NCBI RefSeq assembly: GCF_026571515.1
Contig: NW_026858094.1
Span: forward strand, 496,001 to 559,946
Direction of reading: 5' to 3'
Source of the DNA: Ruditapes philippinarum
Taxonomy: Eukaryota
Length of the DNA: 63,946 bases
Under the pieces are notes generated by a model. It ran no database searches. It was given only the letters and a program-made list of their open reading frames with translations, and was not told where the DNA came from. Numbering within the stretch: the first letter of the stretch is position 1; each line of letters begins with the position of its first letter. A program made the position numbers and the translations under genes. Below, piece after piece: positions 21,475-49,681 of this stretch.

Positions 21475-23040
21475 AGTAAAGTTTCTTACAAATGGTCAAG
21501 TGGTTGTTGAGTTAAGATTGTATTGGACAGTGCTAATGCAATTACTATATGCCTTCCTTCCGGAGAGGAAGTGGTTAGGGTTGTTAGTTTGGAATCACTT
21601 TCCATGCTAAACATTCTTCTAAATGAATTGGCCACCAAACTTGCTAAATGAAATGCGAGTCCCATAAACAGTAAATAGAGGTACAAAGGTGGACTCTCTT
21701 CATGTAAAGCTAGAAAGCATGAACTTAGCAGTGTCCCTACCATTGTTTATAAATATGGTGATAGAGAAGGTATTTTCACATAAGGATTCAAAGTGATGAT
21801 CAGACTTGTCTGAGACATCGGGATAATTTTTGGGCAAAAAATAACGATTTTCTTGCTTTTACATATATAATGATGTTTATATCAGAAGGATGTTGGTTTG
21901 AAGACAAAACAAAGGAAGTTAAGTCATATGAAAGTAGTCGACAATCTCAGTGCATGTATTTTCTGGGCACAATAATAATTTAATACGTATAGATATTTAG
22001 TGCCTTTGCAATTGTAAAATTTCCGCAATCTGATTAAAATCAGCTCCCAAATAACGCTATAACAGCGAGCTTTTACAATTTTGAAAGCGATACGGTTTCT
22101 TATTTTAACTGCCGGAAAACCAATGCTGAGCAGGTAATTTTCACGACATAACGTTGTTCATATAGCCGACAGGTAAACTGGCAAAATAATCTTGCTCATT
22201 AAAAATTGAGTCTATTATTTCCAGTTAAATTATGTCAAATTACTTCAAACATTTTTTTTCTAACAAAATCAACTTTTTTTACTACCGCGGACAGCGAAAT
22301 TTTGATAATGCGTCTAATGCCTATCTGTAAAAACAGGCTTGATTGCATCGCTAAAAAAAGCTTTCTCGGAAAATCCGAATGATAATGAAGACAAAACATA
22401 TACGGTGGTTATCAGATATACATGTTCTGAAATTTAGTCAGTTTTAGAATTTCCACATTTTAACCGCGAATGACCATGACAACCACCATAAACTACATAA
22501 CATTTATTTCCATTATTTCTTTACCTTTTAATAGTTGAAGTTAAATCGCATCATATGATTCATATCAATTGTGAATATGGAAATGTAAAAATATAACGAT
22601 CACATTTGCATAATATTTCTAATGTGTTTTTGCCTTTTTTTTGATCTATTCAGTTTTGTCACAAGTTAGTTTGTTACGTTTTAATCAAACATTCTATTTG
22701 CTTATTAAATACATGTACATGTACTATCATGCCCTTGCATCAATGTACGCTTAAGTATCATTGATATAAAAAAAAACTTTTTATTTTTTTATTTGACCTT
22801 TTAAAATCTTTCAAATAGCTGTTAAATAAAACAATATATTCACATAGGGTATCTATCAATATTTTTTAACATCTATTTAAAAAAGATGCGCCTATGAGCA
22901 TAAATTACTGCGTTCTTATGGAAGATATCACTCGTTCACCGAGTTCATGGCCTTTACACCAGTCAACTAGAACATACGAGTTATTATCTATCTGTAGATG
23001 TTATAGTGTTATAGTACTATACACAATTTGGCATAGAAAG

Positions 23041-24445
23041 ATGATTTCGGAAACCTTAACACTGGAGAAAGTTATACAGGTAATTGTTTTTTTTTCTTAA
23101 CTCTTGAATTCTTGTATTTTCTGTTGCAAATCTGGAGAAATTCCTATATAAACATCAATTGTCTTATTAACAAGAAAATGTAAGTTGCTGCTTCATCCTC
23201 AACGGAATTTATTTATTTATTATTTATGTGGAAAAATGTATTTTTTGTTTTAACTGTAATTGATCACTTGACAAGTATATGTGTGTTGGTACATGTAATA
23301 TGTATGACAAAAAGTGTACTATTTACGGCACTACATGTCTGTCTGTCTGTCTTAATTAGATCTATATATGCAAGGCTTTCCCAAGAATGACAAGGAATTC
23401 ATTAAAATTATGAGCAAATGTAGATATTACGTTATGAGTCTTTAAGAAAATTAAGGCCGGTAATGTGAAAGTAAACGGAATAAAGAAGGCCTTAATAATG
23501 TATGTGCTAATTATTATTTTATATATTGATCTTTACTTCATTGTCTTTTTGGTGCAGTTTCAGCAGATTTATGTATATCATTTTTCAATTTTCGATATTA
23601 CAAGTAGAATTTCGAATTATATGCGCAAGATTTTTTTATTTAAACAAGTCGAGTCCTGCAAATGCACTTAAATTAGTTTACACTTGTTGATAACGTTGAA
23701 CTCTTACTAAAATATAGAGTACCATTATTTAATCCAAATATAACCCTTACACTGGGATTTATGACTTAAATGTGTACATATATTACAGGCTTTCGACAAG
23801 GTAAAGGCTGAATTCGAATTCGATAAAGGGAGATTAGCTGTTATAACCACAGATAGGTATGAAGCTACGTACAATATCATGGGTTATCATTTTACCCCTG
23901 ACGAACCTCTCAGTAAAGCATTTGGTGTGACATGGGTAAAAGACTTTGAAGATATGGTGAATGGTATACTGAAACAGAACATATCGATTTGCATGATATC
24001 TAGGGACACAGATGAAGTGATGGGGGTACGTGTAATGTCGACCATGAGGAGGACGGACCCGCCTCTTGACTTGTCCTCAATGAAATATGAATCATTACGA
24101 GATCTGTTCGAGTTTTTGCACCAAAAAGACAATGAAGTAAAGTTTTTTGATAGGTACAGTGTTGATGAGTGTGTACATTTTAATACTTTAGGTGTTCATA
24201 AAAACTTCCGTCGGATGGGACTTGGAGGTCGACTGATTGGAGCGGCTGTGGCTTTGAGCAGGGAGTTAGGTTTCAAAGCAATCACTGGTGAAGGAACCTC
24301 TAACTTCTCACAGAGGATATATGAGAAAGAAGGATTTGAAACTCTTGCTATATTACCATATGACACTTACATGTATAAAGGTCAACCAATCATAAACGCA
24401 ACTGGTGAACATAAGATGACAAAAATTTATGGTTTAAAGTTATAA
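23041..24445 (+). CDS. insect-type arylalkylamine (dopamine) N-acetyltransferase-like GNAT, copy 1, 231 aa
   Basis: Exon 23041-23079 (MISETLTLEKVIQ, CAG|GTAATT) plus exon 23789-24445, phase 0. Motifs FTPDEPL, LGVHKNFRRMGLG (acetyl-CoA motif A) and GTSNFSQRIYEKEGF. Confidence 0.88.
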
Positions 24446-24499
24446 AACATGCAATTGATTCAATGCATTAAGATTTGTATACGAGAATAAAACATATTA

Positions 24500-24902
24500 T
24501 AAGAACAAGCACAGACTTTCGGAACGAAGTCTCCTCAGAAACACCAAAACTGTACAGGGATGATCAGCACAATGTATTGTTGTGCATCTCATCAATATTT
24601 TTCGATTTAATGATTTTTCAGAGTTATAGCCCTTTAATGATTTTAATTTTTAAAATTTGTCCGTACTTATATCACTGATACAATTTCAATGAATCTTTAC
24701 ACGATTGATCGATAGCTCAAGTACTCGAGCATATTGCATTGGTTTTCCGGTTGAAGGATTTTTAGCCAAGTTATGGCCCTTGACTAAAAAAACATGTTTT
24801 GTCCTAGCTGTTGATGACTATTTGTGTCTCCTGCTACACAGTAGCTATAACATGCAATTGGCTATCATAAGGCGACTATGTGATCACTGATCGTCCTTGT
24901 TT
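24500..24902. mobile_element. HINE-like interspersed repeat 3' of AANAT (paralogous copies ~35115-35528, ~42065-42482)
   Basis: CACCAAAACT, GAGTTAT(A/G)GCCCTT and TTCAATGAA motifs with a CTTGTT end. Present in all three units, so it predates the triplication. Confidence 0.45.
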
Positions 24903-26068
24903 CTTAACAGCAAGTTATTTACAAAAATGAATTGCAAGAGATATTTAGTTATTGTTTCCAGAGTGATTTCATAATCATATTAATTAACATGAAAACTAGT
25001 CACGAATTTAAATTATTGTTGGGTTTTATTTTATTCAAAAAACGAAAATATATGATTGTATGCTGATTTTTTTAAATTAAATCTATAAATAAAATGATAA
25101 CATATATGTTTATGTGTACTTAAAGAGACAAGTGATTTCAATTTGTCAAATATATAGAGGATATTCATGTTTTTTCCTTAAATACACGATTTATTTTCAT
25201 CGAGTGGTATGGAAATATATAAAAAGTTCATTAGTGACTCATACCACAAGATAAAAATAAATCCTGTATTTATTTAAAGAACTTTAATTTTCTGTTTTGG
25301 CATAACAATTTGAAAGAAATTCTTTAAAATTGTGTGTATGGAATGTAGTCCGGCAAGAGATAAGTGAAAATACGTTTCACTACAGTGAAAAATAAAGTTT
25401 TACAGTGAAAAAAAAAAAAAAAACAAAAAAAAAAAAAAAAAAAAACGGGAAAAATAATACGCATTTTGTTTCACCAATATTTCATTTAAATTTCTAGAAT
25501 ACGTATTTGATATTTTCTGTATAGCAAAGATTAAAAAAAACAAAACAAGAGAGGAGACTCATGAGTTTTATAGCTTTCTACCCAATCCCAAAATGTACTT
25601 TGTAAATATTGTTCATTTGTTAAATGTTTTGTTGAATATGTTGAATAAATATGTTTAAACCAAAACAAAACAACAACAACAAAAATAAAAAAAAACAAAA
25701 AAAAAAAAACAAAAAAAAAACAAAAAAAACAATTACTCGTACATTGATAAAATATTTCAATATGGACAGTCTAAAACTATTTTTGATATAATACGTTTAT
25801 AAATGCGCGTGTTATCCGATCGAAAATTTTAGGTTCTTACTATTTCGTATAAAAACATACCCCAATAACCAGAAATATCATATGTCAGCCATTTCTATGT
25901 TATTGGAATTGTCACATGAAATTCACATTGAGAATCCACCTCAGAAGTTCAAAGGACATTAACCGAGATCTCAAACGCCGTTGTCAGAAATATCAACTGA
26001 TACAGGAACTACAGAATTCACAAAGAGAGCGATTATTTTTACTTATTTAAAAGTAATGACAATATATT

Positions 26069-28253
26069 CAAGATTTTATTCCAAATACATGTGGGTATTA
26101 TACCCATGAGCACACAGCATATATACAAACATACATAAAGAAACATAATATCAAGGTCATTAAACATATATAACATATATTAAACTTATTATATTTACTG
26201 TATATTTGAGTCATAAGTTTGCTTTAATATGAACAGAATAACATATTACAGTAAGGTTTAAATGAAGCACAGGTTTTGCATAATGATATCAATAAAGTAA
26301 CATTACATTTACCTTCCTAGGTACTATAATTTACAAAAATTCAACATTTGTTCTTAATTCAAACATTTTAAAGATAAACATAGATAATTTTCTTATAACA
26401 TTTTCATTTTGAGATGTTAACAATTCAATAAATTTTGGTATATTTGGGTTTTTTTTCAATAATATTTATCTATGAGCTGTTTTCTCAAAACATTGTATTG
26501 TGGACATTCTAATAATACATGAAATTCATCTTCTACAGTCTTGTAGTTTTAAGCAAATATTACATTTTCTTTCATTATAAGGAATTGCTTCAGGTTTATG
26601 CCATCTACCAGTTTCTACTTTTAATCTATACTAAGAAGTCCTGAAACGTGATAAAGATTTCCTAAATTTTTCAATATTAATCATTGACAGATATGACTTA
26701 AAACCAAAATCACAAAATAATACATAACTTCTTGCTCTTGATGAATCTCTTAAAGTTGCATACCAATTTTGTATAAATGTATCTGTTAATCTTTGTTTTA
26801 CTACTGCTAAAAATAAATTTATATCACCAACGCCCTGATTAATCCATACTTCATTGAAACCTAAAGATTGTAACAAAATCATAACAAACTTAGCCCAGGA
26901 CTTTGAATTCGGGTTAAGTTCTAAATCTCTACACATAAGATCATATACAACTTTGACATATTTTGTACTACTTCACTGAACAACTTTTAACCAGTATTTT
27001 ATAACATTAATAGCTTTCATTGTTTTTAAAGATGTCCTTCCAAGTTCACCATAGATAAAATTGTTTTGTGTTTTTCTTTTAAGTCCTAACAACTTCTTAC
27101 AATACTTTAAATGAATATTTTCTAATACATGACTATCAAGTAAACCCCATATTTGTGATCCATAGTTAAGAATTGGTAAAATAAGTTTATCAAATAAATC
27201 CAGTTTATGTTTAACTGACATACAAGGGAATCTTATCAGCTCTTTTTCAAGTTTATACAACGCCTTCAATGCTTGTCCAGAGAGTATTTCAAAAGTCATA
27301 TTAAAAGATCCACCAACAGAAAAATCAATGCCTACATATGTAAACTTTTTAACTATTTCAATTGACTGACCTTTATAATAAATATTCAAATTCTGTCTAA
27401 GTCTACCCCCTTTTTTAAAAATCAAAACCTTTGTCTTTGTACAGTTAACACTTAATTTCCACCTATCACAATATATTTCTAATAATCTTATTCCTTTTTG
27501 TAAGCCCTCCTCTGTTTCAGACATAATCACTATATCATCTGCATATAATAATAAAAATATCTTTAAAATACCTAAGTCAATACCTTCAAAACCATTTAAC
27601 ATAAAATATTCTTCTATATCATTTAAATACATAGAAAATAAAAAACGGCGAAAGGGATTCGCCTTGTCTTACTCCACAGTAACATACAAACTCTTCACTA
27701 ATAGTATTATTGTATTTTACTCTTGATCTAACATTCTCATACATGGACCTAATAATATTTAACATTTTACCTCTCACTCCAAATTGAATTAATTTATACC
27801 AAATAACATCTCTTACCAAATAATCAAAAGCTTTAGTGAAATCTACAAAAACAGCATACAGCTTTTTTATTATTATCTAATAAATGTGTTATAACACCAT
27901 GTAATATAAAAACATTATCAATAGTGCTCATGTTTTTTTCTGAAACCAGCCTGGGATTCTATATACCCATTGTATTTTTCAGCCCATATATTTAAACGTT
28001 CATTTATTACTTTTGTAAAAAGTTTCCCACAGATGCTAAGAAGGGTAATACCCCTATAATTATTAGGGTTATCTATATCCCCTTTTTTATGAATAGGTAC
28101 AATAAAACCTTCTGTACAACTTGATGGAAAGTAACCTATATCAAACATTTTATTAAACAAAGAAACTATAACCTGTAAAAACTTATCAAAATCAGATCCA
28201 AACTTAAAAAACTCATTTAGTAAATAATCAGGCCCAGCTGATTTACCAGCATT
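26069..28253 (-). mobile_element. 5'-truncated, frameshifted RTEX-like LINE (RT plus C-terminal Cys/His knuckle)
   Basis: GKSAGPD, PIHKKGD..NPNNYRGITL, QAGFR, GVRQG, LLYADD, YGELGR, VETGRW..RKCNIC..EDEFH. 3' end AATAAAATCTTG. TSD ATATATT at 26062-26068 and 28254-28260. Empty site in unit 3 near 43585. Clade assignment is by motif recognition only. Confidence 0.9.
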
Positions 28254-30465
28254 ATATATTTCTCTTTACAAATGTTTGATTAAAGCCTGTTTTCGTGAAG
28301 GCACTGGTTACAGTATGCTCAGTATTGGATCGTCCTATTCAAACTGACCATATGTATATACTCCTTTACCCCTCAATTTAATGTTTCACGTGATTTTTTA
28401 TGTTTCCCTACTTGATTTGTTGTTTTCTTTTTAGCTAACTTAGCTTGTAACGGCATATGTAACAAATCATTCACCCCTAAATTTAATGTTCCATGTGATC
28501 TTTTGGTATTTTAGCACTTGGTTGGTTGTTTTCTCCTGCTCAATTTGCTTGTAAAAGCATAATTGGAGAAGTGTTTGCGTAAATAGGACTTATAAGTAGT
28601 TCTTAGTAAAGCTACACATAGGCGTTTTACACATTCAACAAAAAAGATTTATTGCAGTTCCATCATGTAGTGATAGAACATGAGAAAATTTTATAAATGG
28701 ATAATCTTATATCAATTAATTGAAAATTACTTGTAAAGTTTTTAGAATCTGGAATGTCAAGAAGTATCAATTAAGCTGCACGGTAGGAAAATTTTATAGC
28801 TGCATACATATACTACATAAGCTCATATATATTATTAGTATAAGTTACACATGTTGCTGAAGACCAATGTCTTATTTATGTCAGGAAGACTATACTCTAC
28901 CGGATATCCCGTCAGCTTCTTATATAACGGATTCATAATAATGCAAATAGTTACTGATGACAAGTTCATAAGAATACAGAAGCTCGGTAAAAGCGGCTAC
29001 GCTAAACATATGTGCAATAACAAATTATTTCCGATATAAACTAATCATTGCAGTGAAAAGTTTAATTATTCTTTCAAGTAATTACATTTGAATAGAAAAC
29101 TATACCATTAAGAACAAAATGAAATACAAATGTTATGCTCACAAAAAGTTAACCGTTTACGATGTAGAAATGCATTGTTATTTGTGCATCGGTTCTTCAC
29201 GGTAAAAACGGCACTGTAAGACAACAATCATTTGAAAACTTTTGAATATATTCAACATTAAGTAGAGAGTGAGACTTGCATGTTCTAAAGATAAAAGTAG
29301 AAACGGTAATAATTTTTTTTCGGCATCCTTGTCAGAGTGGTTAAGTTCACTGATTTGAACTACTTAATTGTCCCTAACGGAGTGCAAGGTTCTTTATCTG
29401 ATGATCGATGGTTCTATGTAAGTGCTTATCCCTAAATGGAATCATGCATGAAGGGGCACATTTCTCCACCAATAAAGTTGGAAAATAACCATAAGACCTG
29501 AATTTCAACCTCCAGAATAAAAACTACTAGTAATATTTAATAAGTATGACGTAAAGCAAAGGTATATATTATTAGTTATCAAAACCGTCTCATTAAAAAT
29601 TTTACTTACTACTAGTATCTAACTTAAATTTTACTTACTTTTTATATGCATTTAGCTGTAACTGCCTATAAGCAATCTGATAAAAATATCAAATACGCAT
29701 TTTTTCCCCAACTGCTACCTTTTAAGACTAAAACAACGAACGACTGCTGGTGGTTTACATTTATTCTTAACCGACACCTGCCAAACTGCATATTTTGTAT
29801 AATATAATTTGTAAATATCTTTGTGCTATCGCCAATCAATCCTATTAACCACATGATAAGACATAAACAAAAAAAACAAAAAAAAAACAACAACAACAAA
29901 AAAAACCAACAACAAAAACGAAGAGAATTATATAATTGCCACTAAATTTCTAAACTATTTTTTGATCCCAAACTCAGAATCTCTCCATTAGAAAATACTT
30001 CACGTGAAATATCTAAGCTTATAATGCCTTGCACCTTCAAAGATTTTTAAAGATCGCACTTTTTATATTCTATTGTTCAGCTTCTATGACAAGAAAAGAA
30101 CCACTAGCTCCAAGAAGATCCTGCTGTTCGTTAGTTGAAAGAAGCATGAAACTTTTACACTTTTAAACCATGAATACATCTACATTGTTACTTTGAAGGA
30201 AGCATTATTATAACCAGTTTTAGTCATGGACTTAAATGCCCTTACAGCTGTTTTTCTACTAGTTACTGTCCAAATATTAAAAAGGGTATAAAATCACTTT
30301 AACCTTTTTGGTTCGCGCCAAAGTTTCAAATTGGCCAGTATACAGACGACCCAAAGGTGTTGAAGAACAACATTTAAGACATATTGTTGCAGAAAATCCA
30401 ACATAAACACGGAAATCAAAACTTTCATGACCTCATGTACTATCTACTGAGTTAATTAGTGATGA

Positions 30466-33457
30466 ATACTTTACTGGTCTCAACCCTTACCTGGGACACA
30501 GATTTTTGTGACATCATGCTCTGCCTACTGAGCTAAACAGAGATTGAGACTTTACTTGCCTTATGCTCTGCCTACTGCTATCCCTGGATGGAAACTCTAC
30601 TGTACTCATGCTCTGCCTACTACTATCCCGGGATGAAGACTTTACTGGTCTCATGCTCTGCCTACTGCTATCCCGGGATGGACACTTTATTGGTTTCATG
30701 CTCTGCCTACTGGTATCCCGGGATGGAGACTTTACTGGCCTAATGCTCTGCGTACTGCTATCCCGGGATGGAGACTTTACTGCCCCAATGCTCTGCATAC
30801 TGTTTTCCCGAGATGGAGACTTTACCTGGGACACAGATTTTTGTGACATCATGCTCTGCCTACTGAGCTAAACAGAGATTGAGACTTTACTTGCCTTATG
30901 CTCTGCCTACTGCTATCCCTGGATGGAAACTCTACTGTACTCATGCTCTGCCTACTGCTATGCCGGGATGGAGACTTTACTGGTCTCATGCTCTGCATAC
31001 TGCTATCCCAGGATGGAGACTTTACTGGCCTCATGCTCTGCATACTGCTACCCCGGGATGGAGACTTTACTGGCCTCATGCTCTGCATACTGCTATCCTG
31101 GAATGGTAACTTTACTGGTCTCATGCTCTGCCTACTACTCTCCCGGGATGGAGACTTTACTGGTCTCATGCTCTGCCTACTGCTATCTCGGGATGGAGAC
31201 TTAACTTGCCTCATGCTCTGCCTACTGCTATCCCGGGATGGAGACTTTACTGGTCTCATGCTCTGCATACTTCTATCCCGGAATGGAGAATTTACTGGTC
31301 TCATGCTCTGCCTACTACTATCCCGGGATGAAGACTTTACTGGTCTCATGCTCTGCCTACTGCTTTCCCGGGATGGAGACTTTACTGGTCTCATGCTATG
31401 CCTACTGCTATCCCGGGATGGAGACTTTCCTGGTCTCATGCTCTGCCTACTGCTATCCCGGGATGGAAACGTAACTTGCCTCATGCTCTGCCTACTGCTA
31501 TCCCGGGATGGAGACTTTACTGGTCTCATGCTCTGCCAACTGCTATCCCGGGATGGAGACTTTACTGACCTCATGCTTTGCATACTGCTATCCCGGAATG
31601 GAGACTTTACTGTTCTCATGCTCTGCCTACTACTATCCCGGGATGGAGACTATACTCGATTCATTCTCTGCCTACTGCTATCCCGGATGGAGACTTAACT
31701 GGTCTCATGCTCTGCCTACTGCTACCCCGAGATGGAGACTTTACTGGCTTCATGCTCTGCCTACTGCTTTCCCGGGATGGAGACTTTACTGGCCTCATGC
31801 TCTGCCTACTGCTATCCCCGGATGGAAACTTGACTTGCCTCATGCTATGCCTACTGCTATCCTGGGATGGAGACTTTGCAGGTCTCATGCTCTACATACT
31901 GCTATCCCGGGATGGAGACTTTACTGGCTTCATGCTCTGCCTACTGCTATCCCGGGATGAAGACTTTACTGGTCTCATGCACTGCCTACTACTATCCCGG
32001 GATGGAGACTTTACTGGTCTCATGCTCTGCCTACTGCTATCCCTGGATGGAGACTTTACTGGTCTCATTCTCTGATTACTACTATCCCGGGATGGAAAAT
32101 GTACTGGTCTCATGCTCTGCCTACTGCTATCCCGGGAAGGAGACTTTACTGGTCTCTTGCTCTGCCTACTGCTATCCAGGGATGGAGACTTTACTGGCCT
32201 CATGATCTGCATACTGCTATCCCGGAATGGAGACTTTACTTTACTGGTCTCATCATCTGCATACTGCTATCTGGGATGGAGACTTTACTGGCCTCATGAT
32301 CTGCATACTGCTATCCCGGAATGGAAACTTTACTGGTCTCATGCTCTGCCTACTGCTATCCCGGGATGGAGACTTTACTGGTCTCATGCTATGCCTACTG
32401 CTATCCCGGGATGGAGACTTTACTGGTCTCATGCTCTGCCTACTGCTATCCCGGGATGGAGACTTTAGTTGTCTCATGCTCTGCCTACTGCTATCCCGGG
32501 ATGGAAACTGCTTAACTGCCTACTTGCCTCATGCTCTGCCTACTGCTATCCCGGTATGGAGACTTTACTGGTCTCATGCTCTGCCAACTGGTATCCCGGG
32601 ATGGAGACTTTTCTGACCTCATGCTCTGCATACTGCTATCCCGGAATGGAGACTTTACTGGTCTCATGCTCTGCCTACTACTATCCCGGGATGGAGACTA
32701 TACTGGATTCATTCTCTGCCTACTGCTATCCCGGGATGGAGACTTTACAGGTCTCATGCTCTGCATACTGCTATCCCGGGATGGAGACTTTACTAGCTTC
32801 ATGCTCTGCCTACTGCTATCCCGGGATGAAGACTTTACTGGTCTCATGCACTGCCTACTACTATCCCGGGATGGAGACTTTACTGGTCCATGCTCTGCCT
32901 ACTGCTATCCCGGGATGGAGACTTTACTGGTCTCATGCTCTGCCTACTACTATCCCGGGATGGAGACTTTACTGGTCTCATGCTCTGCCTACTGCTATCC
33001 CGGGATGGAGACTTTACTGGTCTCATGCTCTGCCTACTGCTATCCAGGGATGGAGACTTTACTGGCTTCATGCTCTGCCTACTGCTATCCGGAATGGAGA
33101 CTTTACTGGTCTCATGCTCTGCCTACTGCTATCCCGGGATGGAGACTTTACTGGTCGCATGCTCTGCCTACTGCTATCCTGGGATGGAGACTTTACTGGC
33201 CTCATGATCTGCATACTGCTATCCCGGAATGGAGACTTTACTGGTCTCATGTTTTGCCCACTGCTATCCCGGGATGGAGACTTTACTGGTCTCATGCTCT
33301 GCCTACTGCTATCCCGGGATGGAGACTTTACTGGCTTCATGCTCTGCCTACTGCTATCCCGGGATGGAGGCTTTACTTGGCTTATGCTATGCCTACTGCT
33401 ATCCTTTGATGGAGTCTTTACTGGTCTCATGCTCTGCCTACTGCTATCCCGGGGTGG
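30466..33457. repeat. 45-bp minisatellite array 1 (~66 units)
   Basis: Consensus TCATGCTCTGCCTACTGCTATCCCGGGATGGAGACTTTACTGGTC. Occasional 44-bp units. Confidence 0.97.
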
Positions 33458-37545: not shown

Positions 37546-37714
37546 TGAGCCGTGTCATGACAAAACCAACATAATGGGTTTGCGACCAGCATAGATCAAG
37601 ACAAGCCTGCGCATCCGCGCAGTCTGATCAGGATCCATCCTGTTCACTATCAGTTTCTCTACTTGTAATAGACTTGGTAAGCGAACAGCATGGATCCTGA
37701 TCAGACTGCGCGGA
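37546..37714. mobile_element. 237-bp-family MITE, copy 2 (right arm truncated)
   Basis: Matches 17682-17850, then breaks off. Confidence 0.88.
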
Positions 37715-38884
37715 AGAAAAGTTAAAAACAAATAACAAATATAAGTATGACGAAAAGCAAAGGTTCATGTTTAATTAGTTATCGAAACCGTCTCATCAAA
37801 AGTTTTACTTACTACTAGTATCTTACTTTCTAAATTTTACTTACTTTCTAAATGCATTAAGCTGTAACTGCCTATAAGCAGTCAGTCTGATAAAAATATC
37901 AAATACGCATTTTTCCCAACTGCCACCTTTTAAGACTAAAACAACGAACGAGTGCTGGTGGTTTACCGAAACCTGCCAAACTGCATATTTTGTATAATAT
38001 AATTTGTAAATATGTTTGTGCTATCGCCAATCAATGCAATTAAACACAGGATAAGGCATAAACAAAACAAAACAAAAAACGAAGAAAAACCATAATTATG
38101 TAATTGACACTAAATTTCTAAACTATCTTTTATCTCAGACTCAGAATCTCTCCACTAGAAAATACTTCAGTCAAATATCTTAGCTTATAATGCCTTGCAC
38201 CTTAAAAGATTTTTAAAGATCCCACTTTTTAGATTCTATTTTTCAGCTTCTATGACAAGAAAAGACCCACTATGTAGAAACGGAATCATGCATCAGTTAT
38301 AGTAACACTACTCAATATGAATGAGTTTCCGATCACTTTTAAAATGATAAAATTCATCATGGGTGTATTATTTTATTAGTGATCACATAAAGTCGATGTG
38401 TCTACACCGTGATACCGATTTGAACAATTTTTCTGCAAGGAACGTTTCTGTAATTTCATCAAATATTACCTTGTAGTTTCAGAAATGTCATTTAAATGAG
38501 TTGAGGACAATGAACGAACAGCCATTATGATCAAAGACGATCCTGCTCTAAGAAGATCCTGCTGTTCTTTAGTTGAAAGAAGCATGGAACTTATACATTT
38601 TTGAATAATAAATACATCTACATTGTTACTTTGAAGGAAATAAAATTATGACCAGTTTAAGTCATGAACTTAAATGCCCTAACAGCTGTTTTTCTGCAAG
38701 TTACTGTCCAAATTTTAAATAAGGTATAACATCACTTTAACCGTTTTGGTTCGCGCCAAAGTTTCAAAATGACCAGTATAAAGTGTTGAAGAACAACATT
38801 TAAGACATATTGTTGCAAAAAATCCAACAAAAACACGGAAATCAAAACTTTCATGACGTGTACTATGTACTGAGCTAATTAGTG

Positions 38885-39718
38885 ATGAATACTTAACTGG
38901 TCTCAACCCTTACCAAGGAGAAAGATTTTTGGGGCCTAATGCTCTGCCTACTCCTATCCCGGGATGGAAACTTAACTGGTCTCATGCTATGCATACTGCT
39001 ATCCCAGGATGGAGACTTTACTGGTCTCATGCTCTGCCTACTGCTTTCACGGGATGGAAACTTTACTGGTCTCATGCTCTGTCTACTGCTATCCCGGGAT
39101 GGAGACTTTATTGGTCTCATGCTCTGCCTACTGCTATCCCGGGATGGAGACTTTACTGTTCTAATGCTTTGCATACTGCTATTTCGGGGATGGAGACTAC
39201 CCTGGTCTCATGCTCTGTATACTGCTATCCGGGGTGAAGACTTTACTGGTCTTATGCTCTGCCTATTGTGCTAACCAGGGATGAAGACTTTCCTGATATC
39301 ATGCTCTGTCTACTTGGCTAACACTGGATGGAGACTTTACTGGTCTCATGCTCTGCCTACTGCTATCCCGGGATGGAGACTTTACTGGTTTCATGCTCTA
39401 TTGCTATCCCGGGATGGAGACTTTATTGGTCTCATGCTCTGCCTACTGCTATTCCGGAATGGAGACTTTACTGGTATCATGCTCTGCATACTGCTTTCCT
39501 GGGATGAAGACTTTACTGGTCTCACGCTCTGCATACTGCTATCCCGGGATGGAGACTTTACTGGTTTCATGCTCTATTGCTATCCCGGGATGGAGACTTT
39601 ACTGGCTCATGCTCTGCATACTGCTATCCTGGGATGGAGACTTTTCTGGTCTCGCGCTCTGCATTCTGCTATCCCGGGATGGAGACTTAAATGGTCTCAT
39701 GCTCTGCCTATTGTGCTA
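38885..39718. repeat. 45-bp minisatellite array 2 (~18 units)
   Basis: Same consensus as array 1, with a few GTGCTAACCAGGG-type units. Confidence 0.95.
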
Positions 39719-40618
39719 AAAGTGTGAAATTATAGTTTCACAATTTTTACTGTGAAATTATAATATATAATTTTCACGGTTTATTCTTTATGATTGATAA
39801 CAAACAAAAGTCAGATACATTTACAAAAATAAAAAAAAAAACAAAAAAAAACTATGCTTGAGTTTTGAGTCTCATAAACACAAATATGAAGGTGTCAGTT
39901 TTTTACGTGATATAACTTGTATCAAAAGCCTTAACGAGATATTTTTTACTTCTCAAGTGTGTGTATTTTGGCCCATCTTTTGCATGCAGCTTTAAGTTTG
40001 ATGCTTAATCTGACAAAATAATTTAATACAATTTGACCGCGAATGACCGTGACAAGCCGCATCAATTACATAACATTTATTTCCATTATTTCTTTACCTT
40101 TTATTAACTGAAATTGAATGATATCATATCACTTGTGAATATGGAAATGTAAAGATATAACAATCAAATATATGTTACATTTCTATTTGTTGTTGCCTTT
40201 TATATCTATTCAGTTTTGTCACATGTTAGTTTGTTCGTTTTGATAAAACATTGCTTATTAATACATGTAGTTAGGCCTATTATATTTTAATACCTGATGC
40301 CCTTGCATCGATGTAAACATAGGTATCATTGATACCGGTATAAAAACTTTTTATCATTTAATTTGACCTCTTAAAATCTTTAATAGTGGTTAAATAAAAA
40401 ATTACATTGATGATTCACATAGAGTATCTCTCAATATTTTATAACATCTATTTGATAAAGATGCACCCATGAGTATAAATTACTGTGTTCTTATGGAAGA
40501 TATCATATCACTCGTTCGCCAAGTTCATGGCCTTTACACGTACGAGTTTTTATCTATCTGTAGATATAATATTTGGTTTTATAGTGTTACAGTACTGTAC
40601 ACAACATGTCATACTAAG

Positions 40619-42010
40619 ATGATTTCGGAAATTTTAACACTGGAGAAAGTTATTCAGGTAATTGTGTCTTTTTTCAATTTTCTTGAAATGTGATAATTGT
40701 GTCACTGTTGCAAATCTGGTGAAAATCCTATATAACGCATTTTTGTTAAGAAAATATTTCCTGTAAATTGCATTTATGTTTATTATCAAGAAAATGTAAG
40801 CTGATTCATCCTCAACGAAATTTATATATGTGGAAAATGTTTTTTTGTTTAAAATGTAGATCTATTTGATCATTTGACAAGAATATGTGTGTTGGTAATA
40901 TGTATGACAAAAAGATGTACTGTTTACGGCACTGTCTGTCTGACTTAATTATTTATGCAAGGCTTTTCCAAGAATAGCAATGAATTATTTCAAATTATGT
41001 AATTAACAAATGCAGATATTATAATATATGTCATTGGGCAATTTTAAGGAAAATTTAACTTTGAGAAACATTATTATATTTGTAAACGGATTAAAGAAAT
41101 AGCAAAAAAATGATATGTCATGCCTTTGCTCATTATTATTTTATGTATTAAGTTTCAATAGCTTTTAAAAGATCAGTTTTCAATTTTCGATATACCAAGT
41201 AGAATTTGAATTTTTATAGCGGCAATTCTGTACAATAAGTTTTCATCAATTCCATTCATTTATATGTGTTGATAACGTTGAACCCTTACTAAAATATAGC
41301 TCAACAGTATTAAATCCAGATGTAACCCTTATATATAATTACGTGTATTATAGGCTTTCGACAAGGTGAAGGCCGAATTCGAATTCAATAAAGGAAGATT
41401 AGCTGTTATAACAACAGATAGGTATGAAGCTACGTACAATATCATGGGTTATCATTTTACCCCTGACGAACCTCTCAGTAAGGCGTTTGGTGTGACATGG
41501 GTAGAAGACTTTGAAGATTTGGTGTACGGTATACTGAAACAGAACATATCTATTTGCATGATATCTAGGGACACAGATGAAGTGATGGGGGTACGTGTAA
41601 TGTCGACCATGAGGAGGTCAGACCCGCCGCTTGACTTATCGTCAATGAAATATGAATCATTACGAGATCTTTCAAAGTTTTTGCACCAAAAAGACAATGA
41701 AGTAAAATTTTTTGACAGGTACAGTGTTGATGAAGCTGTACATTTTAATACTTTAGGTGTTCATAAAAACTTCCGTCGGATCGGACTTGGAGGTCGACTG
41801 ATTGGAGCGGCTGTGGCTTTAAGCAGGGAGTTAGGTTTCAAAGCAATCACTGGTGAAGGAACCTCTAACTTCTCTCAGAGGATATATGAGAAAGAAGGAT
41901 TTGAAACTCTTGCTATCTTATCATATGACACTTACATGTATAAAGGACAACCCATCATAAACGCAACTGGTGAACACAAGATGACAAAAATTTATGGTTT
42001 AAAGTTATAA
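40619..42010 (+). CDS. AANAT-like GNAT, copy 3, 231 aa
   Basis: Exons 40619-40657 and 41354-42010. Intact frame and splice sites. Confidence 0.87.
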
Positions 42011-43215
42011 AACATGCAATCGATTCAATGCATTAAGACTTGTATATATACGAAAATAAAACATAAGAACAAGCACAAAGTTTCGGAACAAAGTCTCCTC
42101 AGAAACAGTTGGTGCAATTTCACCAAAACTTTACAGTGATGATCAGTACAATGTCTTGTTGTGCATCTCATCAATATTTTTCGATTTAATGTTTTTTCAG
42201 AGTTATGGCCCTTGAATGATTTTAATTTTTAAAATTTGTCCGTATTACTCCTCTTATGCCACTGATGCAATTTCAATGAATCTTTACACGGTTGATCGGT
42301 AGCTCAAGTACTCGAGCATATTGCATTGGTTTTCCGGTTGAAGGATTTTTAGCCGAGTTATGGCATTTGAATAAAAACATGTTTTGTCTGTTAATGACTA
42401 TTTGTGTCTCCTGCTACACAGTAGCTGTCACATGCAATTGGCTATCATGAGGCGACTATGTGATCACTGAGTGCCCTTGTTTCTTAACAGTAGGTTATTT
42501 ACAAAATATTTTGTAAGGGGTATTTAGTTATTGTATCCTGAGTGGTTTCATAATAACATGAAAACAAGTAACGAATTTAAATTATTGTTGAGTTTTGTTG
42601 TAATAAAAAAAAAACGAAAATCTATGGTTGTATGCTGAAATTTTTAAATAAGTTTATAAATAAAATGACTGCATATATATTATTGTGTACTTAAAGAGAC
42701 AAGTGATTTCAATTTGTCAAATATATAGAGGATATTCATGTTTTCTCTTTAAATACAGGATTTATTTTTATCGAGTGGTATGGAAATATATAAATATTTC
42801 ATGAGTGACCAATACCTCAAGATGAAAATAAATCCTTTACTTATTTAAAAAACTTTAATTTTCTGTTTTGGCATAACAATTAATTTCTTTAAAATTGTGT
42901 GTACCAAATGTAGTCCTGCAAGAGATCAGTGAAAATACGTTTCACTACAGTGGAAAATAAAGTTTTACAGTGAAAAAAAAAACGGAAAATAGAAATACGC
43001 ATTTTATTTCACCAAAATTTCATTTATATGTCTATAATACGTATTTGATATTTTCTGCATAGCAAAGATTAAAAAACAAAACAAGAGAGGACACTCATGA
43101 GCTTTATAGCTTTCTACCCAATCCCAAAATGTACTTTGTAAATATTGTTCACTTGTTAAATGTTTTGTTGAATATGTTGAATAAATATGTTTAAACCAAA
43201 ACAAAAGTACAACAT

Positions 43216-43250
<35 letters not shown>

Positions 43251-45339
43251 AACAAACAACAACAACAGCAAATAAACAATTACTCGCACAGTATAAAATA
43301 TTTCAATATGGTCAGTATGAAACTATTTTTGATATAAAACGTTTATGCGCGTGTAATTCGATCTAAAATTTTAGGTCCTTACTATTTCTTATAAAAACAT
43401 ACTCTAATAACCAGATATATCATATACAGTATCAGCCATTTCCATGTTATTGGAATTGTTACCTGAAATTCACATTGAGAATCAACCTTAGAAGTTCAAA
43501 GGACATTAACCGGGATCTCAAACGCCATTGTCAGAAATATCAACTGATACAGGAACTATAGAGAGCGATTATTTACACTCACTAATATATTTCTGTTTAC
43601 AAATGTTTGATTAATGCCTGTTTGCATGAAGGCACTGGTTCCAGTATGTTCAGTATTGGAATCGTCCTATTCAAACTGACCATATGTATATACACCTTTA
43701 CCCCTAATGTTTCACGTGATTTTTTGATATTTCCCTACTTGATTTGTTATTTTCTCTTGCTAAATTAGCTTGTAACGGCATATGTCACAAATCATTCACC
43801 CCCAAATTTACTGTTCCATGTGATCTTTTGGTATTTTAGCACTTGGTTTGTTGTTTTCTCCTGCTCAATTTGCTTGTAAAAGCACAAAGGGAGAAGTGTT
43901 TGCGTAAATAGGACTTATAAGTAGTTCTTAGTAAAGCTACACATAGATGTTTTACACATACAATTCGTAGATTCAACAAAAAAGTTTTATTATGTACAGT
44001 TCCATCATGTAGTGATAGAACATGAGCAAATTTTATAAATGGATTTTCTTCTATTAATTAATTAAAAATTACTTGTAAAGTTTTTAGACTATAGAATATC
44101 AAAAAGTATCAATTAAGCTACACGGTAAGAAAATTGAAAAACAAATAACAAATATAAGTATGACGAAAAGCAAAGGTTCATGTTTAATTAGTTATCGAAA
44201 CCGTCTCATTAAAAATTTTACTTACTGTCTAACTTTCTAAATTTTACTTACTTTTTATATGCATTAAGCTGTAACTGCCTATAAGCAGTCAGTCTGATAA
44301 AAAATATCCAATAAGTATTTTTCCCAACTGCTACCTTTTTATACTTAAAACAACGAACGACTGCTGAAAAAAGAGGTCGTGTGTTTAAATTTATTCTTAA
44401 CTGAAACCTGCCCAACTGCATATTTTGTATAATATAATTTGTTAATATGTTTGTGCTATCGCCAATAAATCCTATTAATCACAGGATAAGGCATAAACAA
44501 AAAAAAAAAAAAAAAACGAAAAAAACAAAAAAAAAAAGCCAAAAAAAAAAAAAAAGACGAAGGGAACCATATAATATTTTGAGGTCTCTTTGACATGATT
44601 GACACTAAATTTCTAATCCCAGACTCAGAATCTGTCCACTAGAAAATACTTCACGTCAAATGTCTAAGCTTAATTCAAAGATTTTTAAAGATCGCACGTT
44701 TTATATTCTATTTTTTTCAGCTTCTATGACAAGAAAAGACCCACTATCACTGCAGTTAAAGTTAAAGTTAAAGTAACACTATTCAATATGAATGAGTTAT
44801 ATACTTCCGATCACTGTTAAAATTATACAATTCATCATGGGTGTATTATTTTATCAGCGATCACATGAAATAGATGTGTCTACACCGTGATACCGATTTT
44901 TCTGTTATTTTATTAAATTTTACCTTGTTGTTTCAGAAATGTTATTTAAATGAACGAACAGCCATTATGATCCAAGAAGATCCTGCTTCAAGAAGATCCT
45001 TCTGTTCGTTAGTTGAAAGAAGTATGGAACTTTTACACTTTTAAATCATAAATACATCTAAAATGTTACTTTGAAGGAAGTGTAATTATAACCAGTTAAA
45101 ATTATTAATTGACTTAAATGCACTTACAACTGTTTTTCTGCCAGTTACTGTCCAAATTTTAAAACAATTGTAACATCACTTTTACCTTTTTGGTTCGCGC
45201 CAAAGTTTCAAAATACAGTATACAGACGACCCCCAAGTGTTGAAGAACAACATTTAAGAAATATTGTTGCAGAAAATCCAACATAACTCTGAAATCAAAA
45301 CTCTCATGACCTCATGTACTATCTTCTGAGCTAATCAGT

Positions 45340-46955
45340 GATGAATACTTTATTTGTCTCAATCAATGATCCTCATGCTGTGCCTACTGAACTAACCTGG
45401 GATGGAGACTTTACTGGCCTCATGCTCTGCATACTGAGATAACATGGGATGGAGACTTTACTGGCCTCATGCTCTGCATACTGAGCTAACCTGGGATGGA
45501 GACTTTACTGGTCCCATGCTGTGCCTACTGAGCTAACCAGGGATGGAGACTTTACTGGCCTCATGCTCTGCCTACTGAGCTAACCAGGGATGGAGACTTT
45601 GCTGGCCTCATGCTGTGCCAATAGAGCAAACCAGGGATGGAGACTTTACTGGCCTCATGCTCTGCATACTGAGCTAACCAGGGATGTAGACTTTACTGGC
45701 CTTATGCTGTGCGTACTGAGCTAACCAGAGATGGAGACTTTACAATCCTCATTTTGTGCCTACTGTGCTAACCAGGGATGGAGACCTTACTGGCCTCATG
45801 CTCTGCCTACTGAGCTACCCAGGGATGAAGACTTCCCTGGCCACATGCTGTGCATACTGAGATAATCAGAGATGGAGACTTTACTGGCCTCATGCTGTGC
45901 CTACTGTGCTCACCAGGGATGAGGACTTTACTGGCCTCATGCCCTGCCTAATGTGCTTACCAGGGATGGAGACTTTACTGGCCTCATGCTCTGCCTACTG
46001 AGCTTACCAGGGAAGGAGACTTAACTGGCTTCATGCTCTGCCTACTGTTCTTACCAGGGATGAAGACTTTACTGGGATCATGCTCTGCCTACTGAGCTAA
46101 CCAGGGATGGAGACTTAACTGGGATCATGCCCTGCCTACTGTTCTTACCAGGGATGGAGTCTTTACTGGCTTCATTTTATGCTTACTGAGCTAACCAGGG
46201 ATTGAGACATTACTGGTCCCATGCTCGGCCTACTGTGCTAACCAGAGATGGAGCCTTTACGGACCTCATGCTCTGCCTACTGTGCTAACCAAGGATGGAG
46301 ACTTTACAGGTCCCATGCTCTGTCTACTGTGCTAACCAAGGATGGAAACTTTACTGGTCACATGCTCTGCCTACTGTGCCATCCAAGGATGGTAACTTTA
46401 CTGGTCACATGCTCTGCCTACTGTGCTAACCAAGGATGGAAACTTTACTGGTCCCATGCTCTGCCTACTAATCAGGGATTGAGACAAATTACTGGCCTCA
46501 TGCTCTGCTTATTGTGCTAACCAGGGATGGAGACTCTACTGGTCTCGTGCTCTGCCTATTGTGCTAACCAGGGATGAAGACTTTACTGGTCCCATGGTCT
46601 GTCTATTGTGCTAACCAGGGATGGAGACTTTACTGGTCTCGTGCTCTGCCTACTTGGCCAACCAGGGACGGAGACTTTACTGGTCTCATGCTTTGCCTAC
46701 ATACTGAGATAACCAGGGATAGAGACTTTATTTATCTCACTTTACCTAATGAGCTAACCTGGTATGGAGACTTAACTGGCTAACCATACCTACTGAAGTT
46801 ACCTGGGATGGAAACTTTACTGGCCTCGCTCCAATACAGAGCCATCCAAGGATAGGGACTTTACTGGCCTCGCTATATATAAATACTGAGCTAAACTGGG
46901 ATTGTGACTTTACTGGCCACGCTCCACCTACTGAGCTAACCAGGAATAGAGATTT
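45340..46955. repeat. 47-bp minisatellite array 3 (~34 units), variant of the 45-bp repeat
   Basis: Consensus TCATGCTCTGCCTACTG(A/T)GCTAACCAGGGATGGAGACTTTACTGGCC, degenerating at the right end. Confidence 0.95.
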
Positions 46956-49681
46956 GCTTTAGCCTACTTTAAACAGCCCTGACAATGTCAGAATTGTAAG
47001 CAAATATAAAATTGAGGTATTACGTGGGGAAAATCTTTAAAAAGCAGTCTCGTCACTGAAAAGTGTGAAATTATAGTTTCGCAATTTTTACTGTGAAATT
47101 ATCATAATTTATATAATTTTCACGGATTATTCTTTATGATTGATAACTCTGACTAGTTTTGCTTAATTCTCTCCCTTTAAATTTAAAATAGTTTCTTTAT
47201 ATTTAAAAACAAAAAGCATCACACATTTGCTATAAACTTGAAATTCTTGACTGCTATCAAGGACAAGTAATTCTGTCAGGCACTTTGTTGAATTATGCCA
47301 CCTTTTCTACTTTCTTTTTATTTCTGAGTAAAAAGGGGCAAGCTGTCTGTGGACAGGTCTTATTATTTTGATAATTTGGTGGCTGGTAGTTTTCACTCCA
47401 GATCACGGCAATAAGCCACATTGAACTTACCAGAGCTCAATGTGGCCACTGCATTGTTCCTGGGCAGGCTGTCATGCATGTTTACCAGTACTGATTGCCT
47501 TCACCTACACAAGGAACTGATAACTTCTGAACATGGCAGAGTAGAAGTACAGTGCGAATGAACATAGAGAGGATTTCATATCAATCACAAGGAAAGTGAC
47601 CTGCACCATCCGAATCAAAATTGGGTCACCCGATTCATAGTCCAACTATTGAGTCCACCATAGCCTTTTGAGCTAACGGACGGCTTTTTTTATCATTTGT
47701 CAAATTAATGCCATTTGTACTCTTTGTTGAATCACTAATTGGTCATCATTCATGTCAACCAATTATTCTGTATTTTTCCTGTAGGAGAGCTGATGGTTCA
47801 TCGAAAAATGGTGTAATGTGTGTGTTGATCTGAAGGGACAGTGATAGCATTAAATAGTAAGACAGTTTCAATCATTTACAAATGTATTAACATTTATTCC
47901 GTGTAGAGGTTGTAACTAAATTATACTTTTTTTCTATTTCCTTGTCAACTGAGTAGAACCACCGACCTTTCATAGATATATTATCTTTAAACTTTGAGTA
48001 CAATGTATATAATTTTGCAAAATATCTAATAGTAAATTATTTATCAGTTAAAATAATTTATTTGAATATATTAGTTGTAAAGAATGTATAATGTACTATT
48101 ACTAGCATTTCTCTTTTTAAAAAATAGTTGTTAAAATGGTGAGTACTAGATGATATTTTACGTCAAGTTATCAAGACAAGACGGTAAGAATTACTGTGTT
48201 TTTAGTCATTTAGCAGTGTGAAAGACAGAGAGGTAAAATATTGAAAAGGTGTAATATTGTATTTATTGTGGCGGGAGGGACATAAATAAATGCCATCATG
48301 AATTATATGTTGCGGTTAGTGTTAAATAAATGAAATGAATAGAACAGGATTTAGTGAATTGCCTGGAAAGAAATGAGAATGAAAACATTGTGAAGTTTTG
48401 AGAATGGAAATAGGACATGAAAAGTTGGTGCTGTGAAAAATGGAAAGCGTTGTTTGAAATAGGAAAGACATGAACTGCAAGAGGTTTTGAAAAATGGAGA
48501 TGTGAACGTGAAAAATAAATGAAAATAAATGGAAAGGGAGAGAATACATGGAAATCGGAATGGAAACAAGTGAATAATAGTCAAGGAAATAGAAAGAACT
48601 AGAGGAGAGTTGAATGAAATGAAATTTGAAAGCGAAAATAGTTCTTCATTTGTGAAAAGAGACTGAATAAAAAAGAAGATAATTGGGTTGAGAAATTGTA
48701 GATGAAAAAAGATAATGAAAGTAATTGGCTTTCTAGACAGATCAACTTTCTGTAGAAAGTTAATTTCAGGTCTCCTGGCATCCATCATCGTTGATTGTTT
48801 GCACCTCCCCATCATAGTTCTGCCATGAAGGGGACGTGCAGATATGACAGATTTTCTACTTTATTCTTATCTAACTTTATCTCGATCTTTACAAAACTTT
48901 CTTTTCTATACAAAGTTTTCCTCACTTATTTTGACCAGACAAGATTATGTAGGTACTGACCATTGGTCATTGACATATACCAGTTGTGACAAACCTCTCC
49001 ATCAAAATATTTGATCTGACTAGCTTTTGTAATGACATTGACCATGGCATTGACCAATTTACAAGACTACCAACTAGCCATGGCTTTCTCTATAGTTATT
49101 GATTGGGGAATCTTTTTGACTAATTTACCTTAACTACTAGGCCCATGCAACCTTAGACCAAAACTTTTTCCGATAATTGGTCAGACAGAGACATTTGGCA
49201 TTTATTGAAGCTCTTTGGCGGCCGTTGAATGGTGGGAGATGTGTACTTGTGACTTAAACCTCAGTGTCTATTCTAGAACTTGTTACTGCGGGATTCACAC
49301 TATTTTTTCAAAGATCGCGCACATTTTGGAAAGGCGTGTGAAATCCTGCATCTGAATTGATCAGTTTTCTCAAAAAGCATACAGGTCTAGACGACTTATT
49401 TTGTTTACATGAACACGGGAAGCCAAAGGGCGGTAATTGTGTACTCTAAATAAACAATCTCCTACACAGTGATCTCCCCTTGTTAGTCTGCCAAGGGATC
49501 ACTGTGAGGCGTTTGCTTAATAAAATCAATATTTTTCTTTGACAACTCGTTTTTCTATAAAGTTGATAATGGCTTTTTTAGAATCTGTTCGCAGCAAAAT
49601 TCTTGTTCAGTAATCCTAACTCTTACCCTAACACATCCCATAACACTAACCCTTACTCATAACGCTATATTGATAATAATG

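What the first reader, a model, noticed from the sequence alone, without database searches (positions are those of the whole stretch)
22457..47147. Three intact insect-type AANAT-like genes in a tandem amplicon
Seen: three 231-aa ORFs with identical exon sizes (39 + 657 nt) and no coding indels, while introns and flanks carry many indels and different insertions. Known: the DEPL Glu and the S/T-S-x-F-S segment match the catalytic elements of Drosophila Dat/AANAT1, which makes N-acetyldopamine for sclerotisation and inactivates amines. Inference: a selected local expansion of amine acetyltransferases in a probable mollusc, possibly for catechol tanning of periostracum or byssus, pigmentation, or monoamine and melatonin metabolism.
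Basis: partly seen in the sequence, partly recalled or inferred. Interest (0 to 1): 0.7.

Follow-up and report, generated by a model that had tools for sequence, protein, structure and literature searches.

The report
Clam amine acetyltransferase gene triplet
Three intact, side-by-side copies of a Manila clam gene encode proteins with the predicted fold of insect amine acetyltransferases, likely enzymes that acetylate small amines; they are one recent twig of a large, little-described bivalve family rather than a special local expansion.

Summary
Observation confirmed: three 231-aa genes (39+657 nt exons, GT-AG introns, no coding indel against about 20 expected) lie in three tandem units, with pairwise dN/dS 0.12-0.22. 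They are RefSeq 'uncharacterized' LOC132752077-79 of Ruditapes philippinarum. Sequence and predicted fold place them with insect AANATs (best PDB match Aedes aaNAT2, Z 27.9; GNATs outside that fold group Z 16 or less). The catalytic and CoA-side residues of Drosophila Dat are kept (Ser182 as Thr), but only 1 of its 3 pocket aromatics aligns, so a dopamine substrate is not shown. The triplet is not exceptional: the genome has 34 matches, 23 of 30 fetched loci are intact with the same intron, several sit in other tandem clusters, and Mactra duplicated its orthologue independently. Named bivalve members form their own group apart from insect members. RNA contigs cover the second exon, with copy-1-like and copy-3-like haplotypes; copy 2, which lacks an upstream block, was not seen. 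Tissue, substrate and copy number in independent DNA are untested, so tanning and pigment roles are unsupported. The wider bivalve family is the more interesting lead.

The parts
23041..23079 (+). copy 1 coding exon 1 (13 codons)
   Evidence: protein equals XP_060598336.1
23789..24445 (+). copy 1 coding exon 2 (GNAT domain of iAANAT type)
   Evidence: RNA contigs cover it
33769..33807 (+). copy 2 coding exon 1
   Evidence: XP_060598338.1
34403..35059 (+). copy 2 coding exon 2
40619..40657 (+). copy 3 coding exon 1
   Evidence: XP_060598337.1
41354..42010 (+). copy 3 coding exon 2
22455..33458 (+). amplicon unit 1 (upstream block, gene, downstream DNA, LINE insertion, minisatellite)
   Evidence: self-BLAST
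33458..39801 (+). amplicon unit 2; starts about 310 bp before the ATG, directly at the end of the unit-1 minisatellite
40028..47147 (+). amplicon unit 3
22455..22757 (+). upstream block shared by units 1 and 3 (about 40028-40331), absent from unit 2; possible regulatory DNA (inferred)
26016..28253 (-). broken LINE-like insertion found only in unit 1
   Evidence: gap between HSPs; RVT_1 hit E 2.9e-9
30514..33458 (+). 45-bp minisatellite, 65 copies
   Evidence: an exact 35-mer of it occurs 10 times in G000, all in this amplicon
38939..39707 (+). 45-bp minisatellite, 17 copies
45371..46952 (+). 47-bp variant of the minisatellite, 34 copies
39718..39801 (+). right end of the unit, matches 47059-47147; its first 60 bp are a dispersed repeat
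39802..40027 (.). 226-bp filler between units 2 and 3 with no match to the other units or flanks

Best explanation
The stretch holds three intact tandem copies of a Manila clam gene whose protein has the predicted fold and the catalytic residues of insect-type arylalkylamine N-acetyltransferases, and it likely acts as a cytosolic acetyl-CoA-dependent enzyme that inactivates small biogenic amines. Shown: gene structure, purifying selection, family placement, transcription of exon 2. Inferred from Drosophila Dat: acetyl-CoA binds first (Asp51-Arg154 salt bridge, Leu147, Lys193), then Glu52, with Thr183 and Ser187, deprotonates the amine, which attacks the thioester. Inferred history: unequal crossing-over made the array after the split from Mercenaria; later exchange of tracts between copies and a deletion or junction at the minisatellite (copy 2) shaped it. 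It is ordinary birth-and-death turnover in a bivalve family of about 20 or more genes. The amine is most likely a monoamine (dopamine, serotonin, tyramine), but this is not shown.
For: phmmer against PDB: 12 of 14 hits are insect AANAT/AgmNAT chains; family profile: the same 12 at E 3e-35 to 2e-14, viral A654L 7e-13, next 1e-4. AlphaFold2 pLDDT 97; Foldseek TM 0.83 to 4fd5; VIA Z 23-28 for insect AANAT entries and A654L, 20.9 for Ebony C-domain, then 16. Residue map to Dat chain 3te4 (numbering offset 15; roles from PMC6070697 and PMC7427786): D46=D51, E47=E52, P48=P53, F43=F48, L146=L147, R153=R154, S182=T183, S186=S187, K192=K193, H220=H221; Thr at that site also in Aedes aaNAT2, aaNAT5b and the Tribolium enzyme. 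dN/dS 0.22, 0.12, 0.13, Fisher P 1e-4 to 3e-10. Three copies form one clade, SH-aLRT 98-100, orthologous to Mercenaria LOC123529497. Informative sites differ by region, chi-square P 3e-7: intron groups copies 2+3, exons lean to 1+2, flanks are star-like. RNA contigs of 4 of 4 runs cover exon 2, none the intron. N-acetylated monoamines are measured in a gastropod brain (PMC6018436).
Against: No activity was measured. Only F43 of Dat's three pocket aromatics aligns (Y64 = M/L69, F114 = L116; low-identity region, register uncertain), and column 69 is the most variable of the 19 copy-variable columns among 20 close relatives. Structural neighbours include polyamine and agmatine acetyltransferases at nearly the same Z. 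Exon 1 had no RNA cover and no splice joint was listed; splicing rests on contigs starting at 23784, where exon 1 and intron ends share 5 nt. No copy-2-type haplotype was seen among the listed RNA rows (29 rows not shown). The clustering of informative sites vanished after thinning (P 0.25). Bivalves have MAO-like genes, so acetylation need not be their main clearance route. Copy number was not tested in independent DNA.
Confidence: 0.7

Rival explanations
1. The enzymes prefer polyamines, agmatine, histamine or other non-aromatic amines (or longer acyl-CoAs), as several insect family members do.
For: 2 of 3 Dat pocket aromatics do not align; agmatine NAT Z 25.9, spermine NAT aaNAT5b Z 24.9, viral polyamine acetyltransferase Z 23.4, against Dat 25.0; the family splits by substrate (PMC6070697).
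Against: Best match by sequence and structure is Aedes aaNAT2; F48, W62 and F66 are conserved aromatics in the same region.
Confidence: 0.25
2. One reading: a selected expansion that makes N-acetyldopamine for tanning of periostracum or byssus, or for shell pigment pattern.
For: Homology to Dat; all three copies conserved.
Against: No tissue data; byssal cross-linking is described as using DOPA-bearing protein (PMC3039461 passage); similar clusters recur across the family; nothing found in print linking such genes to shell colour.
Confidence: 0.12
3. The genes supply serotonin N-acetyltransferase activity for melatonin synthesis in a clam that lacks the vertebrate-type enzyme.
For: A 2026 preprint found no bivalve AANAT or ASMT by orthology, while melatonin work in razor clam is cited.
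Against: About 20 paralogues could do this; a mussel gene called Aanat showed no rhythm in the field (its identity with this family was not checked); no rhythm data here.
Confidence: 0.1
4. The extra copies are redundant: one or two copies do the work, and copy 2, short of upstream DNA, is silent or decaying and looks intact because it is young or refreshed by conversion.
For: Copy 2 lacks the upstream block; 5 of 5 RNA contigs scored are closer to copy 1 or copy 3 than to copy 2; 3 of 30 fetched loci at two or more other places carry stops near the end or frameshifts, showing turnover.
Against: Copy 2's private changes are 9 synonymous and 8 non-synonymous, about a quarter of the neutral ratio; only 4 runs of unknown tissue were laid, and contigs cannot show absence.
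Confidence: 0.35
5. The array is partly an assembly artefact: diverged haplotypes joined head to tail.
For: Fragmented 1.41-Gb assembly with haplotig-like pairs 88-96% identical; no second contig carries this gene; one junction lies at a minisatellite; RNA haplotypes are mosaics of the three copies.
Against: Three copies, 80-85% identical over the loci, lower than those pairs; two different junction structures, one with a 226-bp unique filler; RNA contigs differ from their nearest copy by only 1-4%.
Confidence: 0.1

Closest known systems
Aedes aegypti aaNAT2 (PDB 4fd5/4fd6)
   Same: Best hit by sequence (E 1.6e-16), profile (E 2.8e-35) and structure (TM 0.83, Z 27.9, rmsd 1.7); DEPL motif, acidic residue and Thr before the conserved Ser.
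   Different: 26-27% identity; not orthologous one to one; the clam protein has an extra N-terminal helix (8-21) not aligned to 4fd5.
Drosophila Dat / AANAT1 (PDB 3te4, 5gi5, 6k80)
   Same: D46, E47, P48, F43, L146, R153, S186, K192, H220 conserved; Z 24.6-25.0.
   Different: S182 is Thr; Y64 and F114 align with M/L and L; L180 aligns with Glu; 22% identity.
Insect polyamine/agmatine NATs (Aedes aaNAT5b 5yag, Drosophila AgmNAT 5k9n/7civ) and Chlorella-virus A654L (3qb8)
   Same: Same fold, Z 23-26.
   Different: Lower sequence scores (E 6e-24 to 7e-13 with the profile); substrate match untested.
Bivalve 'arylalkylamine N-acetyltransferase-like' gene models (Mya, Dreissena) and unnamed orthologues (Mercenaria LOC123529497, Mactra ACF0H5_013888-90)
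   Same: Same bivalve group; Mercenaria orthologue 74% identical.
   Different: Names are automatic; no functional study found in the searches made.
Vertebrate AANAT/SNAT
   Same: GNAT superfamily; similar reaction by inference.
   Different: Distinct clade from iAANAT (PMC4394704); the clam protein carries the iAANAT DEPL Glu.

Membership tests
iAANAT (insect-type arylalkylamine N-acyltransferase) | GNAT fold with the iAANAT helical insert; nearest structures are iAANATs | tested here: met
   top 17 VIA rows are insect AANAT/AgmNAT entries, Z 24-28; GNATs outside the group 16 or less
iAANAT (insect-type arylalkylamine N-acyltransferase) | DEPLN motif with catalytic Glu (Dat E47) | tested here: met
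   DEPLS, E52 in all three copies; motif per PMC6070697
iAANAT (insect-type arylalkylamine N-acyltransferase) | Ser182/Ser186 of the proposed triad | tested here: met
   T183 and S187; Thr at the first site as in 4fd5, 4fd4, 6v3t
iAANAT (insect-type arylalkylamine N-acyltransferase) | Asp46-Arg153 salt bridge, His220-Pro48 contact, Lys192 CoA contact | tested here: met
   D51, R154, H221, P53, K193 by alignment; contacts in the model not measured
iAANAT (insect-type arylalkylamine N-acyltransferase) | Groups with iAANATs against vertebrate/non-vertebrate AANAT and GNA outgroups | tested here: inconclusive
   No outgroup sequence was available. Unrooted tree: 15 named bivalve rows on one side of a branch (SH-aLRT 98), 3 named insect rows on the other
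iAANAT (insect-type arylalkylamine N-acyltransferase) | Acyl-CoA-dependent N-acylation of an amine | not testable with these tools
   needs an assay
Dat/AANAT1 (dopamine N-acetyltransferase proper) | Aromatic pocket Phe43, Tyr64, Phe114 with Met121 | tested here: not met
   F48 yes; M/L69, L116, L/V123 by HMMER alignment; register uncertain, nearby W62/F66 may substitute
Dat/AANAT1 (dopamine N-acetyltransferase proper) | Nested among insect AANAT1 orthologues | tested here: not met
   clam copies lie deep inside the bivalve group
Vertebrate AANAT (timezyme) | Sequence/structure closer to SNAT than to iAANAT | tested here: inconclusive
   no SNAT chain was listed for direct comparison; all strong matches are iAANATs

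The most novel reading that the evidence does not exclude
Bivalves carry their own, undescribed radiation of insect-type amine N-acyltransferases (about 20 or more genes in this clam, one shared intron, recurrent tandem clusters), in which duplication and conversion reshuffle the alpha-2 lid of the amine pocket; it forms a diversified amine-clearance and detoxification repertoire and holds the missing route to N-acetylserotonin and melatonin in animals without vertebrate-type AANAT.
Probability: 0.3. Interest if true: 0.6.

Novelty: new member of a known kind. Interest (0 to 1): 0.33.

Why it matters
The triplet itself is ordinary gene-family turnover. Its value is as a pointer: a 2015 survey found no iAANAT in the two molluscs it screened (both gastropods, PMC4394704), a 2026 preprint found no AANAT in bivalves by orthology, and a 2026 review assumes N-acetylation ends dopamine action in bivalves while citing only hamster and insect papers (PMC13081610). 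This family gives concrete, soluble, easily assayed candidates for amine acetylation in a farmed clam.

Tried and rejected
(1) Positive selection on the pocket lid: codons 60-92 hold 8 non-synonymous and 2 synonymous changes against 12 and 33 elsewhere (P 0.003), but the window was chosen after looking; scan-corrected P 0.11, 0.047, 0.09 for 20, 30, 40 codons, changes are mostly conservative and the region is variable in 20 relatives too. Kept as a weak hint; relaxed constraint explains it. (2) Local clustering of informative sites: P 0.0004 raw, 0.25 after thinning. (3) Independent genomic copies in JGI metagenomes: 91 pattern matches, 0 confirmed. (4) No RNA cover on exon 1, the upstream DNA or copy-2-private letters: contigs cannot show absence. 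(5) No vertebrate SNAT among the rows shown: not an exclusion. (6) Pfam BAR_3_WASP_bdg hit is below its cut-off and the model is a plain GNAT: rejected. NCBIfam gave only a sub-threshold rimI hit. (7) Papers naming six locus or accession ids: 0; other searches gave no study of this bivalve family; the library lacks most subscription journals, and preprint supplements were not seen. (8) Earlier findings of this scan: nothing. (9) The careful tree did not finish; the quick tree is used. Seven of 30 loci (L011, L028, L021, L022 broken; L027, L029, L030 partial) were left out of it.
Full report
Observation. Exon 1 is 39 nt (23041-23079, 33769-33807, 40619-40657), exon 2 is 657 nt (23789-24445, 34403-35059, 41354-42010), the introns are GT-AG in phase 0, and each spliced frame gives 231 aa. 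The proteins are letter for letter RefSeq XP_060598336, 338 and 337, named 'uncharacterized' LOC132752077-79 of Ruditapes philippinarum, on a contig of 559,946 bases, the place where the window ends in G000. Non-coding DNA has 58 gap events in 1967 columns; about 20 would be expected in the coding part and none is seen. Pairwise dN/dS is 0.22, 0.12 and 0.13, with dS 0.11-0.22 (Nei-Gojobori).

Amplicon. Self-BLAST gives three units: 22455-33458, 33458-39801 and 40028-47147. Each ends in a 45-47-bp minisatellite (65, 17 and 34 copies). An exact 35-mer of it occurs 10 times in the genome, all here. Unit 1 alone has a 2.2-kb broken LINE. Unit 2 lacks the 300-bp upstream block of units 1 and 3 and begins at the end of the first minisatellite, about 310 bp before its ATG. 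A 226-bp filler separates units 2 and 3. Relationships change along the unit: in gap-distant columns the intron has p-distances 0.22, 0.23, 0.09 (copy 1 odd), the exons 0.04, 0.05, 0.06 (copy 3 most odd), the flanks are star-like (chi-square P 3e-7). This fits exchange of tracts between copies (inference); fine-scale clustering was not significant after thinning (P 0.25).

What the protein is. Pfam gives GNAT only. Of 14 PDB sequences matched, 12 are insect AANAT or agmatine NAT chains. A 42-sequence profile gives those 12 at E 3e-35 to 2e-14, viral A654L at 7e-13, and everything else at 1e-4 or worse. The AlphaFold2 model (pLDDT 97) matches Aedes aaNAT2 at TM 0.83 and Z 27.9, rmsd 1.7 over 206 residues; insect entries and A654L span Z 23-28, Ebony's C-domain 20.9, and other GNATs 16 or less. 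The ESM Atlas puts it beside arthropod and mollusc AANAT-like clusters. Mapping to Dat (offset 15 read from E47) gives D51, E52, P53, F48, L147, R154, T183, S187, K193, H221 for D46, E47, P48, F43, L146, R153, S182, S186, K192, H220. Roles come from PMC6070697 (passages) and PMC7427786 (passages and section 6). Of Dat's pocket aromatics F43, Y64, F114, only the first aligns with an aromatic; the alignment is weak there, and W62 and F66 are conserved nearby. So the chemistry is likely conserved and the amine is open.

The triplet in its family. The genome has 34 matches (a lower bound; 40 candidates scored). Of 30 loci fetched, 23 have a full open second exon, and 23 of those 23 have a phase-0 AG at the same place; 4 loci are broken (two of them one place) and 3 partial. 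Some are probable haplotig pairs, so about 20 genes. Clusters recur: four matches in 18 kb on C788, four in 45 kb on C5844, three in 26 kb on C6692. In the quick tree the three copies form one clade (SH-aLRT 98), sister to three unnamed proteins, with Mercenaria LOC123529497 next; three Mactra genes with consecutive locus tags form their own clade (99). A profile search found 3384 representatives at E 0.001 or better, 108 at 1e-30. I looked up names for 20 of the best 150; 8 had a named member with a species: beetles, a thrips, sawflies, Mytilus, Mya, Mercenaria, a chiton (one more had only a generic name). In a 33-row tree the 15 named bivalve rows and the 3 named insect rows lie on opposite sides of a branch (98); there was no outgroup. 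The proteins are therefore insect-type by fold and motif, but not orthologues of Dat.

Expression. 20 of 24 listed runs hold part of exon 2. Four RNA runs of three studies were laid on copy 1 at 88% likeness: all four cover exon 2 and none the intron; two have contigs that start at 23784, exactly where a spliced copy-1/2 transcript would stop matching, but exon 1 was not covered and no splice joint was listed. Five contigs whose differences were all listed are nearest to copy 1 (three) or copy 3 (two), none to copy 2; run X5 has both a copy-1-like 3' end and one with 17 differences plus the 1-nt deletion diagnostic of copy 3. The haplotypes mix letters of the three copies. Tissue is unknown, and alleles cannot be told from paralogues in contigs. 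Copy number in independent DNA remains untested.

Mechanism. Most likely (0.7) a cytosolic enzyme (no hydrophobic N-terminus in the sequence) that binds acetyl-CoA first and then acetylates a small amine with Glu52 as base, serving amine inactivation. N-acetylated dopamine, serotonin and tyramine are measured in Lymnaea brain (PMC6018436, passages). Against a special role in tanning: no tissue evidence, and byssal cross-linking is described through DOPA-bearing protein (PMC3039461, passages). Polyamine preference, a melatonin role, redundancy of copy 2 and mis-assembly are treated as rivals.

What is known. PMC4394704 (passages and section 7 part 1; supplement not read) found iAANATs in insects, Daphnia, nematodes, Saccoglossus and Ciona, none in Aplysia or Lottia, and lists no bivalve. 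Preprint 10.64898/2026.08.17.745212 (passages; supplements not seen) found no bivalve AANAT. Preprint 10.64898/2026.02.23.707208 (passages) measured a mussel 'Aanat' and cites Zhu et al. 2022 on razor clam, which I saw only as a citation and which may describe a member of this family. PMC13081610 (passages) assumes N-acetylation in bivalves. PMC9781830 (one table row) lists an unidentified Mercenaria GNAT. NCBI already names some Mya and Dreissena members AANAT-like. Nine searches found no study of the family.

Verdict. Real and well conserved, a new member of a known enzyme kind; the triplet is ordinary turnover. Interest 0.33, carried by the undescribed bivalve radiation.

Noticed in passing
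window 11658-11960 (+): Exon of a Rab7-like gene (best PDB hits Rab-7a, E 3e-22), about 11 kb upstream of the array; a possible single-copy depth control.
   Followed up: partly
window 59440-60714 (-): Single open frame of 424 codons, rhodopsin-family GPCR (7tm_1 E 2.9e-31), 12 kb downstream; ligand not examined.
   Followed up: partly
window 62870-63283 (+): Myb/SANT-like DNA-binding domain (E 1.6e-10); such domains often belong to Harbinger transposons (recalled).
   Followed up: no
window 19182-20488 (-): Broken LINE-like element: PHD finger frame followed by an endonuclease-like frame (recalled resemblance).
   Followed up: partly
window 3171-3560 (-): Frame with a methyltransferase-like motif resembling METTL10/EEF1AKMT2 (recalled); no hit in Pfam, NCBIfam or PDB.
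   Followed up: partly
window 17674-17922, 37538-37714, 50899-51112, 55765-56013: A 245-bp palindromic MITE-like repeat, arms 103-109 nt with a 31-nt spacer; one partial copy lies in unit 2.
   Followed up: no
window 51999-54865: Inverted blocks of a 21/22/42-bp tandem repeat.
   Followed up: no
window 856-1733 and 4888-5744: Tandem arrays with 160-165-bp and 140-bp units.
   Followed up: no
G000 C788 413-432 kb, C5844 315-360 kb, C6692 73-100 kb (L010, L013, L015, L016, L018-L022, L024, L025): Other tandem clusters of the same family, more diverged; several members change the DEPL or TSNFS motifs, and L021 and L022 have stops near the 3' end.
   Followed up: partly
P0171 cluster: The chiton Liolophura sinensis has at least four near-identical relatives with close locus numbers, so tandem duplication of this family is not limited to bivalves.
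   Followed up: no
window 23890-24026: RNA runs X3, X5 and X18 each split into two or three haplotypes here (alpha-2 region), while X3 and X5 collapse to one contig over the catalytic core.
   Followed up: partly
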